Origin: an uncultured virus (IMG/VR IMGVR_UViG_3300022562_001918)
Lineage: Duplodnaviria; Heunggongvirae; Uroviricota; Caudoviricetes
Reading direction: 5' to 3' (one strand)
IMG/VR virus record: IMGVR_UViG_3300022562_001918
DNA: 20,000 bases
Part shown: piece by piece, positions 667 through 12,952 of the stretch
Layout of the letters: every line of letters starts with the position of its first letter
How positions within the stretch are numbered: the first letter of the stretch is position 1
Notes under the pieces: generated by a model
Seen by the model: only the letters and a program-made list of their open reading frames with translations
The model's database searches: none
What the model was told of the DNA's origin: nothing
Position numbers and translations under genes: made by a program

Positions 667-903
667 ATGTCGCGAACATACCGTTCGCAGTGCTACGGAT
701 CTCGCAAGTCCACTCGTGAAGAGTTGGCCCGCCTGGAGCACGAGCTCGAGCGGCAGTACCGCGCACATTGTCGTGCCGACGCCCAAGCCCATGATGAGAT
801 CATGGAAGAGGCGTTGAGCGATGAGGTGTCCCGGAACAGCCGTCGACTCGCTCGCTGCTCCTCGAGGACCGACTCCAGCGAGCGGTTTGCGATGAGCAAG
901 TAG
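667..903 (+). CDS. Hypothetical charged helical protein, 78 aa
   Basis: SD AAGGAG upstream of ATG; lies downstream of the promoter motif. Confidence 0.75.
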   Translation: MSRTYRSQCYGSRKSTREELARLEHELERQYRAHCRADAQAHDEIMEEALSDEVSRNSRRLARCSSRTDSSERFAMSK

Positions 904-939: not shown

Positions 940-1097
940 CAGGAGGTCGCACAGTTCGAGTGCGCGCTCCCGTTATGCTTGGCGTCTACCTAGCTGGAAC
1001 AACCTTTGGAGTCTTAAGTGATGAAAGGCCAGCAAAGAGGCGCCCGGATAGGGATGCTAAAAGTACGCACCAAGCTGTGCGACTTCCTGTTTTTTTA
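940..1097 (+). ncRNA. Candidate structured RNA (long rod-like hairpin, ~150 nt) ending in a T-tract
   Basis: CAGGAGGTCGCACAGTT (940-956) pairs with AGCTGTGCGACTTCCTG (1073-1089), 17 bp with 2 G-U; nested stems GTGCG/CGCAC, GGCGTCT/AGGCGCC, GCTGG/CCAGC, CCTTT/AAAGG. Confidence 0.6.
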
Positions 1098-2134: not shown

Positions 2135-2477
2135 CTGGAAACAAGCACTGCTCCTTCAAGAGCAACTCATCGACTGCCTCGAGATTGTCGAGAAGTACAT
2201 CTGCGATGAGAACATGCCAGCCGCCTTCGTCGCCCTGGGCGAGGCCCTCGGTATCGTCAAGAAAGCAGAGCCCTACCTCGAAAAGTACACGTCCGACAAG
2301 ACAGGACTGGCCACACTCATTCTGGAGTTTGGAAAGAGACCCATCGCCGAAGACATCCTCATCACCTCATCCATTATCGGCATCTTCCAGGCAATGCATC
2401 GGGTCTACGCTATCTACTCCAACGCCGTCAAAGAGGCGGTGGGGAACGAGCTCGACGACGAGCCCCTCAAGCACTGA
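2118..2477 (+). CDS. Hypothetical helical protein, 119 aa (start revised to ATG 2118)
   Basis: SD AAAGGA upstream; short overlap with the MarR gene. Confidence 0.7.
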   Translation: MSIKDDWKQALLLQEQLIDCLEIVEKYICDENMPAAFVALGEALGIVKKAEPYLEKYTSDKTGLATLILEFGKRPIAEDILITSSIIGIFQAMHRVYAIYSNAVKEAVGNELDDEPLKH

Positions 2478-2479
2478 TT

Positions 2480-2660
2480 CAGGGGGGGAACATTAGAGCG
2501 TTGGGCTCAATGCGTTGGGGCAAGGTGGCCCCCCGATATCTGCTTTTCCCGCCTGCTCCGTCCTTGAAAGGTGCGCAGCCAGTCTCACCTTAATTGAGTC
2601 AAACTGGTACGAAAGCCTGTGCCCCGGTAATTCTGCCGGGGGCAGGCTTCGTTCTTTTTC
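2480..2660 (+). ncRNA. Candidate structured intergenic RNA/leader ending in a terminator-like hairpin
   Basis: G7 (2482-2488)/C6 (2529-2534); CATTAGAGC/GCTCAATG; CCAGT/ACTGG; AAGCCTG..CCCCGG/CCGGGG..CAGGCTT (2613-2649) + TTCTTTTTC. Confidence 0.45.
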
Positions 2661-5404: not shown

Positions 5405-5435
5405 GGAACCCCGTGGCGGGGGTTCCTTTTTTAGC
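5405..5435 (+). terminator. Intrinsic terminator GGAACCCC/GGGGTTCC + TTTTTTAGC
   Basis: 8-bp perfect stem and T6 just after the stop of ORF 4386. Confidence 0.85.
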
Positions 5436-5458
5436 CAGTCGTCCTTTATAGGCATAAG
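5436..5458 (+). promoter_or_regulatory. Promoter copy 4 (CAGT-N11-GGCATAAG)
   Basis: Same motif and spacing; precedes the candidate ncRNA. Confidence 0.75.
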
Positions 5459-5464
5459 TTCTAT

Positions 5465-5607
5465 GAAAGGATTTTGCGCTATCCTAATTCTGCAGCCGGC
5501 CCGGCTATGGTGCGTGGGGAGAGCCCACGACGGTGTTTTTTCTGAGTGTCAGTTCGTCAGCACTCAGGCTTTTTCGCCCATGAAACACCGGGCTGGCTGC
5601 CCTTTTT
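5465..5607 (+). ncRNA. Candidate stand-alone small RNA (~140 nt, three-way junction)
   Basis: Lies between promoter copy 4 and T-tract 5603-5607; GCAGCCGGCC/GGCTGGCTGC closing stem, CGTGGG/CCCACG, CGGTGTTT/AAACACCG, CTGAGTG/CACTCAG, 5' AGGAT/ATCCT hairpin. Confidence 0.6.
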
Positions 5608-5630
5608 CAGTGGTCAAAATCGGGCATAAG
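5608..5630 (+). promoter_or_regulatory. Promoter copy 5 (CAGT-N11-GGCATAAG)
   Basis: Same motif; followed by ATGAAAGGAG, as in copy 2. Confidence 0.75.
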
Positions 5631-5652
5631 AAGGATGAAAGGAGAATTTCTT

Positions 5653-5835
5653 ATGTCCAAGAAGAGACGACTTCGGTCCATGGGCCAAAGGCAGAAACGA
5701 AACCTCATCGCGCTATACACGGTTGGCATCTCTCTCGTAGGCCTCGCAGCCTACACGATTGTGCTCAGCCCAGTGCTCGGCTCGCTTGGGGTATTCAGTC
5801 TGCTTGCAGGCTTGACTGTGCTCGCATCCAACTGA
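5653..5835 (+). CDS. Small membrane protein, 60 aa (basic N-terminus, 2 hydrophobic segments)
   Basis: SD AAGGAG; MSKKRRLR...LIALYTVGISLVGLAAYTIV...VLGSLGVFSLLAGLTVLA. Confidence 0.75.
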   Translation: MSKKRRLRSMGQRQKRNLIALYTVGISLVGLAAYTIVLSPVLGSLGVFSLLAGLTVLASN

Positions 5836-5860
5836 ACTCAGAACTTCGACTTAACTTACC

Positions 5861-5915
5861 AAGCCCTTCGGGGCTTTTTTAGCCTGCATGATCAGTCCGC
5901 GAAATCTGGCATAAG
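5861..5915 (+). promoter_or_regulatory. Terminator AAGCCC-TTCG-GGGCTT + TTTTAGC fused to promoter copy 6 (CAGT 5893-5896, GGCATAAG 5908-5915)
   Basis: UUCG hairpin, T6 and motif at the conserved spacing. Confidence 0.85.
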
Positions 5916-6771: not shown

Positions 6772-7236
6772 ATGAAGGAAAACACAATTACCGTACCGAT
6801 CACTGGACCCGACAAAATCTACAACGTGGAAATCACGTTGCCCGACGACCCGGCGAAAGCGAAAGCTGTTCGAGAATACTACGCACAATCCGAGGCCTTC
6901 GATGACATGAACCGAATGAACCGGCTCATGGCGCCCGAAACCTTCGAGGAATACGCCAGGTGGTCCATCTCTGAAATCGAGAAGAACAAAGAGCTCTTCA
7001 CCAGCATTTTTGCTCATCCGAGCATGGATGTACTGAAGAGCTTTGTCGACATGTCTCGAGACAACATGGAGAAGGTCCTCGGCTACGTCCACGAAGACTT
7101 TCGGAGGCGCTACGAGACGCTCATGACAGAAGTCATCGAAGAGCTGGAAAACTGCGAAAGCCTCGAAGAGTTCTTCGCCATCTACCTGGGTATGACGGCT
7201 CGAATGAAACTCGAGTTTCCAGAGGTCAATCAGTAA
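6772..7236 (+). CDS. Hypothetical acidic protein, 154 aa, probably leaderless
   Basis: ATG 6 nt after GGCATAAG. Confidence 0.8.
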   Translation: MKENTITVPITGPDKIYNVEITLPDDPAKAKAVREYYAQSEAFDDMNRMNRLMAPETFEEYARWSISEIEKNKELFTSIFAHPSMDVLKSFVDMSRDNMEKVLGYVHEDFRRRYETLMTEVIEELENCESLEEFFAIYLGMTARMKLEFPEVNQ

Positions 7237-7244
7237 CCCCTTCG

Positions 7245-7332
7245 GTCACACACCACACCTAGCACGCCCGCTATGCCTACCAGTTCCGCTGGAGGTCGGG
7301 CCACTGCTCTCGTGGTGTGTGGCTTTTTTAGC
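7245..7332 (+). ncRNA. Candidate rod-shaped structured RNA or extended terminator (~80 nt) + TTTTTTAGC
   Basis: GTCACACACCAC (7245-7256)/GTGGTGTGTGGC (7312-7323), 12 bp with 1 G-U; nested AGCA/TGCT, GCCCG/CGGGC, CCT/AGG, CCAG/CTGG. Confidence 0.55.
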
Positions 7333-9535: not shown

Positions 9536-12500
9536 ATGAGCCATTGGAAGGAGTATGGGTACGTCGACGCCCAGTTTGAGCACTCCGCCAGCAAGAAGAA
9601 GTCGAAGTGGGTTCGCGTTCAGGTGGAGGACGTGGACAAGAAGATCGTCGCGAAATCACAAGGCGCCAATTGCTTTGCGACTATCCAGCGATTCAAGGAC
9701 GCGACCTCCCTTCTCGAGCAGTCGAGGGAAGCTAAGACCGCGAAAAAGAATGGGCACGACCCTAGAGAGGCTCAGCGCCAGGCAGATTTCAGGGAAGGTG
9801 ACGACCTCCCCTCTGACTGCCAGATGCGCTACCACGGACTGTTCTTTGATTTTGACTGTGACCACAAGAAGTTAGGGATCACCCGGGAGGAGGCGGTAGC
9901 CATCAGCAAGCGCGACTGCCTCAGGCTCGCGGAGTGGTTCCATGAGACGTTCGACCTCAACGAGGCGCACCTCCAGATCTGGTTCTCGGGTAACAAGGGG
10001 TTCCACCTCACCGTTCGCCCGGAGGTATTCGGCATCAAGCCGCACTACCACCTGACCTACATCGTTCGCTCCATTGCGTTCGAGCTGGCGGATGCCCTTG
10101 AGCTCGAGACCCTGGACCGGTCTGTCTACACCCGCCGGCGGATGTGGCGTATTGCCAACACCGTCAACCCGAAGTCGGGGAAGTTCAAGATCGAGCTCTA
10201 CATCCAGGAGCTCCGGCAGTGGAATTCGGAGAAGCTGCTCGAGCGCGCGTCCGAGCCAAGGGTCGAGACCTCGAACCGAGACCCGATGGCCTGGTCCCAT
10301 CTCTGGGAAGCCATTGAATACAAAGACATTGCACCGGATGAGGAGGCGGTGAACTGGTACACCGAGCGGTTTGCGGCGTACGACGCCTACAAAGATCTCA
10401 GGAACTTATCGCCAAGAAACCCCATTAGGACGATGGAGGAGGCTGGCACCAACGGTCTCGAAGGGGACAAGTACCCGGTGTGTATCAAGGACCTGCTCGA
10501 CAATGGGCCGAAGGAGGGAGGGCCAAACCGGAACCGCGTCATCCTGCCCATTGCTGGATTCTTTAGCGATGCTGGAATGGACAAGGCCTGGACGCTCAAC
10601 AGGATGGCGGAGTGGACAGAGACTCACTATCCAGACCCGAGGGAGCTCAGCGACCGGCTGAACAACACGAAGAGCGTGGTGGAGTCGGCGTACCGTGGCC
10701 AGACACGGTTCTCGTGTCGGTTCATCCGCTCGTGTGGTGGTACGGGGGAGAAGGGTCGTGTGGCATGCGTGACGGAGAAGAACTGTCACTGGATCAAGTC
10801 ACCCGAGGACCAGGAGCCAGCCCAGATTCCATTCATGCATCTCTCGGAGGCCTCGAAGGGTTGCTACAACGGCACGAAGATTCGCACGGCGATTCACGTT
10901 GCAACGATAGCGGGCAGGCCGTTTCAGCTGCCAATGGCTGGGCAGTTTCTCTGTGAGCCAGATCCATCGGCCAAGATCTGCGAGAAGTGCCCAAACCTAA
11001 AAGCTGGGGGGAATCTCAAATGGTCATTTGACTCCGAGGACCGAGATGTTCTGAACCTCGTCAACGTCAACGACAGCATCAAGAAAGGAACCATCAAGAG
11101 CAAGGCTGGCATTCCACAGAAGTGCTACCGGGTATCTATCAACGTTGAGGATTATGGAAACGTCGAGGAGATTCAAGTCATCCCGATGGTCGACTACGCC
11201 AACGCATATGAAATGGATGCAGGCGAGGACGATGACACGATTGACGCAAGAGGAGCCAAGCATGTTGTTCGTCTGGCCTACTACATGGGTCATGGCATCG
11301 AGGCCAACAAGAAGTACCTGATTGAGCCGACAGTCTTTGGCCACCCAAGGGACCAGCGCGTCTGCTTTCTGTTCGACAAGGCTGAGCCCGCTCAGAACGA
11401 CATCGACCAGTTCAAGATGACGGATGATCTAAAGGACAAGCTAAAGGTCTTTCAGCCAAGGATAAACCAAACCGTCGAAGAGAAGCTCATCGAGATTCAC
11501 CGAGACTTGACGGTCAACGTCCACAGGATTGGTGGCCGGTTCGATCTCTCCATCGGGGTCGACCTTTGTTACCACTCGGTCATTGGCTTTCGCTTTGCGG
11601 GCGATGACGTCCACAAGGGATGGTTCGAGCTCGTGGTGATTGGCGACACCTCAACAGGCAAGTCGACGCTTATCCAGCGCATGATGCGGCACTTTGGCCT
11701 TGGGGAGCTCATCGCGGGTGAGCAAGCCAAGCGCACGGGTCTCATTTATGCCTCGGTTCAGGTGGCTGGCCAATGGGTGCTCATCTGGGGAAAGATTCCA
11801 CAGAACGACAGGCGCCTACTGGTCATCGACGAGTTCTCAGGCATTCCAGGTGAGGAGGTATCCAAGATGACGCAGCTCCGCTCCGAGGGCAAAGCCCAAG
11901 GTGGTGGTGTCAACGCGCACTATGAGACCTTTGCTCGTGCCAGGATGATTCTCCTTACGAACCCTCGAGGGAACAAAGGCTCTCTCCAGGGATTCAACTA
12001 CGGGGTTCAGGCGCTCGATCAGCTATTCGATGAGCGTGCTGACCTAAGGCGTGTCGACTTGGCCATGATCATGGAAGAGTCGGATGTCCCCAAGGAGATT
12101 GTCACCAAGCGCTGGGACAAGGTGGACCTGCCGCACATCTACACGGCAGATCTTTGTCGCAACCTGGTCTTGTGGGCCTGGTCTCGCAATCCTCACCACG
12201 TCGAGTGGATGGAGGATGCAGAGTCTGAGGCGGTGTCCTGGGCCGACAGGCTAGGTGATACCTACGAGTGCGATTTGCCACTGGCGGTAAGGACGGACCT
12301 GAAGATCAAGATTGCCAGGGTGGCAACAGCGTGTGCAGCGAGGCTGTTCTCGACGGATGACGAGGCCAAGAAGGTCATCGTGAGAAAGGAGCATGTGGAG
12401 TTTGCGGCGAAGTTCATGGACCGCGCCTATCGCAAACCAGCGATGGCGTTCTTTGAGTACGCTCGCAAGTTCAAGATGGACAACCATTTCACGGAGGAGA

Positions 12501-12952
12501 AGAAAGCAAACATCAGGCACACGCTGGAGAGCTATGGGGATGACCGGGACAGCATCGTGTCGGCGCTCCTTGACGTAGATCTGATTACAAAGCCCTTGTT
12601 CATCGACATGGTCAACATTGGTGATGACGAGTTCAGGAAGCTGTGGAAGTTCATGGTGGGCCACCGGCTGCTGAGAAAGACAGCCAGGGGCTACCGGAAG
12701 ACTGGAGCATTCACGAAGTTCCTAAAGGAGCTGGGTGTGAAGAGCTCGGGCTACTCCGGTGAGCTGTCGTCTGACTTTGAGACGGGCGGCAATTTCGAGG
12801 AGGCTGTGCGCGAGCTCGTTGGGCCGATTGGCGGAGATGACGAAGAGGATGACCATGGCCAGGAGGATGATCCTGTAACAGAGGACGAGTTCGACGACGC
12901 TCCATTCGGCGACGACGAACCATTCGAGGAGGCGGACGAGCCTCCGTTCTAG
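9536..12952 (+). CDS. Archaeo-eukaryotic primase (AEP)-MCM-type AAA+ helicase fusion, 1138 aa
   Basis: AEP motifs FFDFD, FSGNKGFHL, LDRSVY..RMWR; Cys-rich PriL/PriCT-like region (YPVC..FSC..C..C); Zn finger ICEKC; MCM motifs Walker A GDTSTGKS, Walker B LLVIDEF, ARARMILLTNP, Arg finger LRRVDL; acidic C-terminal tail. Confidence 0.9.
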   Translation: MSHWKEYGYVDAQFEHSASKKKSKWVRVQVEDVDKKIVAKSQGANCFATIQRFKDATSLLEQSREAKTAKKNGHDPREAQRQADFREGDDLPSDCQMRYHGLFFDFDCDHKKLGITREEAVAISKRDCLRLAEWFHETFDLNEAHLQIWFSGNKGFHLTVRPEVFGIKPHYHLTYIVRSIAFELADALELETLDRSVYTRRRMWRIANTVNPKSGKFKIELYIQELRQWNSEKLLERASEPRVETSNRDPMAWSHLWEAIEYKDIAPDEEAVNWYTERFAAYDAYKDLRNLSPRNPIRTMEEAGTNGLEGDKYPVCIKDLLDNGPKEGGPNRNRVILPIAGFFSDAGMDKAWTLNRMAEWTETHYPDPRELSDRLNNTKSVVESAYRGQTRFSCRFIRSCGGTGEKGRVACVTEKNCHWIKSPEDQEPAQIPFMHLSEASKGCYNGTKIRTAIHVATIAGRPFQLPMAGQFLCEPDPSAKICEKCPNLKAGGNLKWSFDSEDRDVLNLVNVNDSIKKGTIKSKAGIPQKCYRVSINVEDYGNVEEIQVIPMVDYANAYEMDAGEDDDTIDARGAKHVVRLAYYMGHGIEANKKYLIEPTVFGHPRDQRVCFLFDKAEPAQNDIDQFKMTDDLKDKLKVFQPRINQTVEEKLIEIHRDLTVNVHRIGGRFDLSIGVDLCYHSVIGFRFAGDDVHKGWFELVVIGDTSTGKSTLIQRMMRHFGLGELIAGEQAKRTGLIYASVQVAGQWVLIWGKIPQNDRRLLVIDEFSGIPGEEVSKMTQLRSEGKAQGGGVNAHYETFARARMILLTNPRGNKGSLQGFNYGVQALDQLFDERADLRRVDLAMIMEESDVPKEIVTKRWDKVDLPHIYTADLCRNLVLWAWSRNPHHVEWMEDAESEAVSWADRLGDTYECDLPLAVRTDLKIKIARVATACAARLFSTDDEAKKVIVRKEHVEFAAKFMDRAYRKPAMAFFEYARKFKMDNHFTEEKKANIRHTLESYGDDRDSIVSALLDVDLITKPLFIDMVNIGDDEFRKLWKFMVGHRLLRKTARGYRKTGAFTKFLKELGVKSSGYSGELSSDFETGGNFEEAVRELVGPIGGDDEEDDHGQEDDPVTEDEFDDAPFGDDEPFEEADEPPF

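What the first reader, a model, noticed from the sequence alone, without database searches (positions are those of the whole stretch)
5451..5607. An RNA-only cassette: own promoter, three-way-junction fold, own T-tract
Seen: promoter copy 4 is followed by ~140 nt that fold into a 5' hairpin and a three-way junction (P1 5492-5501/5591-5600, P2 5513-5518/5524-5529, P3 5531-5538/5583-5590 with apical 5542-5548/5561-5567). Then come TTTTT and the next promoter, and no self-contained SD-led gene is evident. CCG 5588-5590 can pair with either P1 or P3, so alternative folds exist. I do not recognise it as tRNA, SRP or a known ribozyme. It is the best candidate for an undescribed phage small RNA gene.
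Basis: partly seen in the sequence, partly recalled or inferred. Interest (0 to 1): 0.8.

Follow-up and report, generated by a model that had tools for sequence, protein, structure and literature searches.

The report
New phage three-way-junction RNA family
An uncultured bacterial virus carries a small gene that makes only a folded RNA; the same fold recurs in dozens of unrelated phages and prophages and matches no catalogued RNA family, and whether it acts as a protein decoy or cuts itself is untested.

Summary
It follows one copy of a phage promoter repeat (GGCATAAG: 8 on +, 0 on -, 0.35 expected) and ends in T5. Relatives shuffle these cassettes, and one lacks this one at this site. A model built from the window alone found a homologue in an unrelated 199-kb phage. 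Further scans gave 32 copies in phages and bacterial genomes (mostly prophage-like loci). Stems covary (0 of 500 shuffles match). The core RUGGUG...UGAANCA is near-invariant, and 5507/5585 covary non-canonically (A-A 15, G-U 15, G-G 2). There is no Rfam match, no shared partner gene and no support for the overlapping ORF. No RNA data exist. Best guess: a stable RNA acting in trans as a protein-binding decoy (0.4). Rivals: a new self-cleaving ribozyme class (0.3); a cis processing signal (0.2). Three earlier notes of this scan describe a widespread phage three-way-junction RNA on other DNA; I could not tell whether it is the same family.

The parts
5405..5432 (+). Intrinsic terminator of the upstream cassette (8-bp hairpin, T6)
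5427..5435 (+). Cassette boundary motif TTTTTTAGC; the joint in a relative that lacks the RNA lies right after 5435
5435..5458 (+). Promoter repeat copy: hexamer 5435-5440, 10 nt, GGCATAAG 5451-5458 (promoter function inferred)
   Evidence: in run X2 a 55-nt copy with 4 differences is followed by an SD and ATG
5463..5491 (+). Inferred start (ATGAA at 5463) and 29-nt leader with a weak hairpin 5468-5472/5481-5485; not part of the family core
5492..5504 (+). P1, 5' strand (13 bp; sequence varies, pairing kept)
5505..5512 (+). J1/2; conserved core RUGGUG at 5507-5512 (U5508, G5509, G5510 invariant in 32 of 32)
5513..5529 (+). P2, 6-bp hairpin with GNNAN pentaloop 5519-5523 (G5519, A5522 invariant)
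5530..5531 (+). J2/3 (AC in 24 of 32); 5531 is C or U in all 32, compatible with pairing to a core G
5532..5578 (+). P3 (5532-5535/5575-5578, covarying) enclosing a variable arm; here the arm holds the hairpin 5541-5549/5560-5568, replaced by a different hairpin in run X3 and by a short loop in most homologues
5579..5587 (+). J3/1; core UGAANCA at 5581-5587 (six positions invariant; 5585 covaries with 5507)
5588..5600 (+). P1, 3' strand
5603..5607 (+). T5 tract, probable 3' end (inferred)
   Evidence: sequence
5607..5639 (+). Next promoter repeat copy (hexamer 5607-5612, GGCATAAG 5623-5630, ATGAA 5635)
5653..5835 (+). Next cassette: 60-aa protein with basic N-terminus and hydrophobic C-terminal half; seen in a relative behind a different upstream cassette, so not tied to the RNA
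5463..5882 (+). 139-codon ORF overlapping the RNA, the next promoter and the next gene; judged not a gene
   Evidence: 9 candidates, none at E 0.01 or better

Best explanation
Shown: 5492-5600 is a member of an uncatalogued, compact three-way-junction RNA family of phages and prophages, and in this phage it is the sole cargo of one swappable promoter-cargo-terminator cassette. Inferred: RNA polymerase starts near 5463 and stops near 5607, giving about 140 nt. P1 clamps the ends. The two conserved strands (RUGGUG and UGAANCA) zip into a non-canonical, loop-E/S-turn-like extension of P1 on which the GNNAN loop docks, making a stable particle. The RNA itself is the product and works in trans, most likely by binding and titrating a widely conserved host RNA-binding protein or nuclease (a decoy). 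Elsewhere the same module sits in heavily transcribed places (head and tail operons, tRNA and tmRNA clusters) and is freed by processing or decay of its flanks. The partner is not identified.
For: Family and fold. Covariation on an alignment not fitted to the structure: P1 83% of cells paired, 11 of 13 pairs compensatory; P2 97.5%, 6 of 6; 0 of 500 shuffles match; slid controls 38-45%. Tertiary signal: 5507/5585 is the 4th strongest corrected mutual-information pair, A-A 15, G-U 15, G-G 2 of 32, with equal identity within and between types (0.626 vs 0.628). RNA as product: here it lies between a terminator and the next promoter, with nothing to regulate or cut in cis. It is gained or lost as a cassette (X2 contig skips 5436-5606). 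3 of the other 31 copies have a sigma-70-like site within 110 nt upstream, against a 1.2% background. One record has two copies in tandem. L091 lies opposite to both nearest ORFs. No neighbouring protein family recurs as a partner (118 ORFs scanned; 74).
Against: No expression, binding or structure-probing data. No partner is named, so the decoy step is pure inference. Only 4 of 32 copies show an own promoter by my scans, while 11 of 32 start within 45 nt of the stop of a same-strand ORF of 100 codons or more, which fits cis processing at least as well. The size, junction and invariant purines fit a ribozyme. The T5 tract is separated from P1 by 2 nt and closes an 83-nt loop, so termination there is uncertain.
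Confidence: 0.4

Rival explanations
1. A new class of small self-cleaving ribozyme. The two conserved strands and the docked pentaloop form an active site that cuts phage polycistronic transcripts between genes and next to tRNA or tmRNA genes.
For: It meets the criteria in PMC10085705 section 17 (50-80 nt, multi-stem junction, highly conserved positions, covariation). 11 positions are invariant in 32 of 32. Peripheral stems are freely variable. It sits between unrelated genes, 4 nt before a tRNA-Ser in L073 and just before a permuted tmRNA in L110. The strands can be laid on hairpin-ribozyme loop B so that 5507/5585 falls on the A38-A24 contact (PMC8216279 passages; the lay-out uses recalled strand sequences).
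Against: The A38- and A24-equivalent positions are not A in 17 of 32, whereas both are invariant in 941 hairpin ribozymes, and no invariant loop-A or G8 partner is seen. No circularly permuted form among 10 pattern hits (one pattern, one collection). A ribozyme-only cassette leaves nothing useful to cut. A site 5' of a tRNA duplicates RNase P (own knowledge). In PMC10085705, 10 of 10 non-hammerhead motifs picked by the same criteria did not cleave.
Confidence: 0.3
2. A cis-acting processing, end-protection or attenuation signal: the fold blocks an exonuclease, is cut by RNase III in P1, or pauses polymerase, and so sets the ratio of neighbouring phage gene products. The stand-alone cassette here would be a remnant whose gene was lost.
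For: 11 of 32 copies start within 45 nt of a same-strand stop codon; 8 of 32 have a U-rich tract after the core against a 10.5% background (loose criterion). Several follow head genes (L096, L097, L149). Tandem copies in a 3' region (L116).
Against: Copies opposite to their neighbours or with an own promoter (L076, L091, window) have no cis target. 24 of 32 lack the U tract. The window copy keeps every invariant base, unlike a decaying remnant.
Confidence: 0.2
3. Not a functional RNA: a leaderless 139-aa gene, a mere long terminator, or a DNA-level recombination site.
For: Four leaderless ORFs in this window start at the same ATGAA (283, 5922, 6319, 6772). Folding z-scores of -4 occur in coding tiles. 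The tract after the distal hairpin resembles the cassette terminators.
Against: The ORF has no homologue and crosses the next promoter; 4 of the 5 listed X3 differences inside it fall on first codon positions (counted by hand). G-U pairs and one-strand conservation of unpaired bases point to RNA. Joints in relatives lie at the promoter repeats, not in the fold.
Confidence: 0.05

Closest known systems
Small self-cleaving ribozymes of phages and metagenomes (hammerhead, twister, twister-sister, pistol, hatchet, HDV-like theta; Rfam families)
   Same: Size (80-110 nt, core about 60), multi-stem junction, invariant unpaired bases, variable peripheral stems, scattered intergenic sites, some beside tRNAs.
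   Different: No Rfam model matches any copy scanned; no CUGANGA hammerhead strand; no supported pseudoknot; no permuted form found; cleavage untested.
Hairpin ribozyme loop B (PMC8216279, passages)
   Same: A GAANCA strand facing a U/purine-rich strand, an S-turn-like option, and a covarying non-canonical contact where A24-A38 would lie.
   Different: A24 and A38 are invariant in hairpins but vary here (17 of 32 not A); no loop A; the motif abuts a three-way junction; hairpins were found only in RNA form (PMC10085705 section 17), this one is in DNA phages.
PeSL regulatory cassettes of T4-type phages RB49/phi1 (Arbiol et al. 2010, PMC2839356, passages)
   Same: Repeated promoter-plus-terminator units flanking orphan cargo; relatives differ by cassette exchange at the repeats.
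   Different: The promoter here is not sigma-70-like (1 consensus site in 20 kb, in a gene); one cargo is a non-coding RNA; mini-circles not tested.
Orphan phage RNA motifs (RAGATH and HRIMA series; candidates of Fremin et al. 2023, PMC10690425)
   Same: Conserved, covarying motifs of unknown function in phage or metagenome DNA.
   Different: No match to the Rfam models; core words not found in the supplement files that could be searched. Files 1, 2 and 4 of PMC10690425 were not searched and could hold it.
Phage decoy RNAs (pseudo-ToxI, RNA anti-CRISPRs; recalled, not read here)
   Same: A small phage RNA in an accessory region proposed to titrate a host protein.
   Different: No repeat or CRISPR-repeat likeness shown; no cognate system identified; hosts span several phyla.

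Membership tests
Any Rfam 15 family | Covariance-model score at the gathering threshold | tested here: not met
   Window: 0 hits to E 5, 3 hits of 12 bits or less. Loci holding 31 homologue copies: no hit overlapping the motif.
Hairpin ribozyme | A38 and A24 invariant | tested here: not met
   Equivalent positions 5507/5585 are G-U or G-G in 17 of 32 against 941 of 941 A. The equivalence is my lay-out.
Hairpin ribozyme | Loop A with invariant G8 and G+1 | tested here: not met
   No second internal loop; loop position 5521 is G 24, A 7, U 1.
Hammerhead ribozyme, including non-circular permutations | CUGANGA strand, GAAA strand and NUH site round a three-way junction | tested here: not met
   Conserved strands are RUGGUG and UGAANCA; no Rfam hammerhead hit.
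Twister, twister-sister, pistol, hatchet, HDV-like (theta) | Family core and pseudoknots as modelled in Rfam | tested here: not met
   No hit; no long-range Watson-Crick covariation beyond P1-P3 among the top 22 pairs. Theta paper seen only as listing and abstract start.
Self-cleaving ribozyme of a new class | Site-specific self-cleavage | not testable with these tools
   Needs an in vitro assay.
Self-cleaving ribozyme of a new class | Natural circular permutations | tested here: inconclusive
   0 of 10 hits of one P1-closed pattern in IMG/VR fold correctly.
tRNA or tmRNA | Cloverleaf or tmRNA model | tested here: not met
   ARAGORN finds 0 genes in the window.
Riboswitch or leader | Consistent position 5' of functionally related genes | tested here: not met
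   Downstream neighbour is same-strand in 17, opposite in 8, absent within 400 nt in 7 of 32; no shared family.
PeSL-like shuffling cassette | Repeated terminator-plus-promoter units flanking orphan cargo | tested here: met
PeSL-like shuffling cassette | Relatives differ by exchange at the repeats | tested here: met
   Three joints in runs X2 and X3, all ending at the promoter repeat; each rests on one contig of depth 2.7-5 with 33-59 nt on the short side.
PeSL-like shuffling cassette | Sigma-70-like promoter; mini-circles | tested here: not met
   No sigma-70 consensus at the repeats; mini-circles not testable.
Trans-acting decoy RNA | Discrete stable RNA that binds a host protein | not testable with these tools
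   No RNA run available; no partner known.

The most novel reading that the evidence does not exclude
The family is a new structural class of self-cleaving ribozyme, or another autonomous catalytic RNA, built on a loop-B-like core with two interchangeable active-site variants (A-A and G-U), spread through phages of several bacterial phyla and here carried as a stand-alone mobile gene.
Probability: 0.3. Interest if true: 0.9.

Novelty: new variant of a known kind. Interest (0 to 1): 0.68.

Why it matters
It turns a single-genome guess into a defined RNA family: 32 copies, a covariation-supported fold, a near-invariant core and a built-in pair of natural compensatory variants. That makes it testable in a day of in vitro work. 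If it cleaves, it is a new ribozyme class, of which few are known. If it binds a host protein, it is a phage RNA effector that works across phyla and points to a conserved host target. It also shows that PeSL-like phage cassette arrays shuffle RNA genes as well as protein genes.

Tried and rejected
No whole genome is held for the window. No RNA holder listed among 9 runs; this says nothing on expression. No contig laid covers 5472-5567 (4 of the 7 holders were laid). Close relatives were not found: primase and the 336-aa neighbour in IMG/VR, 2 and 14 stretches, none confirmed; promoter pattern, 2 viral and 55 metagenome loci, no DNA or protein similarity beyond one 32-nt match; exact window words, 4 and 11 viral hits and 0 genome hits, all chance; BLAST in cultured phages and plasmids, nothing real. 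Model R1 found nothing new in the first 72 loci. The window primase has no match in 5 carrier phages, so these carriers look unrelated. Antisense targets: no duplex stood out for five RNA pieces against about 3,980 tiles, and a hand-spotted pairing with the 60-aa gene was not in the top 8. Circular permutation not found. The two other U-tailed long hairpins of the window (940-1089, 7245-7323) are not family members (no R2 hit up to E 5); their shared 9-nt word with this RNA arises in 2.1-5.5% of control triples. Wider model searches added nothing in three samples: 2 of 151, 1 of 151, 1 of 151, all already known. By eye only, from recalled motifs, I rejected hammerhead on either strand, pistol, twister, kink-turn, group II intron domain V, retron, attC and CRISPR-repeat readings. 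Not in print, as far as these searches go: and supplement searches.

Full report
Setting. The window is phage DNA. Genes lie on the + strand; the few with matches are a primase-MCM helicase (9536-12952), an HNH nuclease and a MarR-type regulator. An exact copy of the 60-aa neighbour lies on a 71-kb contig, and the best sequencing holder is a marine sediment metagenome that may be the source. No whole genome is held.

The cassette array. A repeat of hairpin, TTTTTTAGC, a CAST-type hexamer, 10 nt, GGCATAAG and ATGAA precedes most small genes. The octamer occurs 8 times on + and never on -, against 0.35 expected. Its promoter role is inferred from position; it is not sigma-70-like, and I found no paper on it (listing only). 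Contigs of four other runs show that relatives shuffle the cassettes. In X2 a contig matches 5336-5435 without a difference, then jumps to 5607 and goes on into a different cassette, so the 171 nt with the RNA are missing at this site. Two more joints end at the same repeat. In X2 the promoter copy that here drives the RNA precedes an SD and ATG. Each joint rests on one low-depth contig. This works like the PeSL cassettes of T4-type phages (PMC2839356, passages).

The observation. Promoter, fold, T tract and next promoter are as described. The folding score alone (z -3.5 to -4.0) would not be enough, since coding tiles reach the same. The 139-codon ORF has no homologue and is broken by the joints. 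In X3 a contig matches 5568-5787 with 8 differences and is preceded by a different sequence that, paired by eye, forms a hairpin of about the same size in the same place. That is one contig, and it did not show the 5' half.

The family. A covariance model built from the window alone hit a 199-kb IMG/VR phage at 37.5 bits, E 3e-6, with P1 changed in compensation, 4 nt before a tRNA-Ser. Patterns from the two shared strands gave 5 of 11, 5 of 13 and 14 of 20 loci that fold correctly. The patterns did not constrain the stems, so 24 of 44 with a paired 6-bp hairpin is far above chance. After removing duplicates there were 20 members. A second model from 13 compact members scores the window, which it was not trained on, at 56.6 bits; members score 41-76 and the pattern-only loci rescored 30 or less. 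It found a second tandem copy in L116 and matches in 6 of 151 genomes of one acidobacterial family and 7 of 147 of one myxobacterial order, seeds included. Leaving out an unpublished genome, 11 new copies bring the set to 32. Three further samples added none. Named carriers are MAGs titled Acidobacteriaceae (2), Actinomycetota, Verrucomicrobia and Kofleriaceae; many genome copies lie among head, tail, replication or integrase genes. Five carrier phages have no match to the window's primase.

The fold. On a plain MAFFT alignment of the 20, P1 is paired in 83% of cells with 11 of 13 pairs compensatory and P2 in 97.5% with 6 of 6; no shuffle of 500 reaches this and slid controls give 38-45%. Members were chosen partly by structure, so these figures lean high. 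In the 11 model-found copies P2 is 100% and P1 80% paired; P3 shows only 46% there as the model aligned it. Invariant in all 32: U5508, G5509, G5510, G5519, A5522, U5581, G5582, A5583, A5584, C5586 and A5587. For 20 copies the search patterns imposed most of this; the 12 model-found copies keep it while varying 5503-5506 and 5579-5580. Positions 5507 and 5585 covary without Watson-Crick pairing (A-A 15, G-U 15, G-G 2), and identity elsewhere is the same within and between types, so descent does not explain it. From memory, these three combinations fit one trans Watson-Crick/Hoogsteen family. Loop base 5523 is U in 16 of 17 G-type and 4 of 15 A-type copies, a hint that the pentaloop docks on the core. 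Two registers remain open: a loop-E-like zip of UGGUG with GAA, or two Watson-Crick pairs 5508-5587 and 5509-5586 behind a bulge.

Context and function. No partner gene recurs. 11 of 32 copies begin within 45 nt of a same-strand stop, 8 of 32 have a U tract behind, one precedes a tRNA, one precedes a permuted tmRNA and one follows a tRNA at about 80 nt, and 4 of 32 have a promoter-like site close upstream (ORF calls in GC-rich loci are noisy). A riboswitch or RNA-guided system is therefore unlikely. The stand-alone, mobile, fully intact copy here argues that the RNA is the product. I put a trans-acting, protein-binding RNA at 0.4, a new self-cleaving ribozyme at 0.3 and a cis processing signal at 0.2. 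For the ribozyme speak the size, core and scattered sites. Against it speak the failed hairpin and hammerhead tests (PMC8216279, passages), no permuted form in one scan, and 10 of 10 similar candidates that did not cleave in PMC10085705 (section 17). None of the three is shown.

Novelty. No Rfam family overlaps the window copy or the 31 others. Ten paper searches found no description. Seen: PMC2839356, PMC8216279 and PMC11620745 as passages; PMC10085705 as abstract, section 17 and a word search of its one supplement file (0 hits); PMC10690425 as listing and a word search of 6 supplement files (0 hits; files 1, 2 and 4 not searched); two 2026 preprints as abstract and passages (supplements and database not seen); PMC10879173 as listing only. 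The motif may sit unnamed in those unseen candidate sets, and gapped alignments or figures would escape a word search. This scan's notes hold no look-alike by sequence, but three describe a widespread uncatalogued phage three-way-junction RNA and one a UGAAAACAG-loop motif; they show too little sequence to compare.

Verdict. A real, uncatalogued, strongly supported phage RNA family, here a stand-alone cassette; function open and cheaply testable. Interest 0.68.

Noticed in passing
window 940-1089 (+): A 150-nt rod closed by a 15-bp helix and followed by T7, filling the 3' part of the cassette after ORF 667-903. No Rfam match; not a member of this family. A second candidate RNA.
   Followed up: partly
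window 7245-7323 (+): A 79-nt rod closed by 12-13 bp and T6 after ORF 6772-7236 (z -6.1); kept in run X5 with 4 differences and 2 gaps.
   Followed up: partly
window 969-977, 5500-5509, 7267-7275: The three U-tailed long helices share CCCG(G)YTATG, the only three matches in 20 kb; post hoc controls give 2.1-5.5%, so suggestive only.
   Followed up: partly
window 684-696 with 900-912: A 13-bp helix encloses nearly the whole 78-codon ORF 667-903, like end-paired mRNAs.
   Followed up: no
window 2477-2660: A structured 180-nt intergenic stretch ending in a long hairpin and T tract, without the promoter repeat.
   Followed up: no
window 283, 5922, 6319, 6772; L001, L046, L057, L041, L007, L037: Four ORFs start at the ATGAA of the promoter repeat (leaderless). 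The same promoter style recurs, often several times per locus, in loci with no protein match to the window; the sigma factor or polymerase is unknown.
   Followed up: partly
window 5653-5835: 60-aa protein, basic then hydrophobic, no family match and only 2 identical database entries; looks like a small membrane protein.
   Followed up: partly
window 9536-12952: 1138-aa primase-MCM helicase fusion; closest cultured matches are Bacillus phages at 30% identity, with a 77% relative in metagenomes.
   Followed up: partly
L073 1589-2942: The 199-kb phage has a cluster of four tRNA-Ser-like genes with different anticodons and one odd tRNA-like element at 2359-2457.
   Followed up: no
L001 1770-2010: A promoter copy followed by about 230 nt with no evident gene, ending in a tRNA-like T arm; possibly another RNA-only cassette.
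   Followed up: no
L110 1488-1921: A family copy directly precedes a permuted tmRNA in a phage head-gene region.
   Followed up: partly
L116 1403-1572: Two family copies in tandem behind a small gene, convergent with a tape-measure gene.
   Followed up: partly
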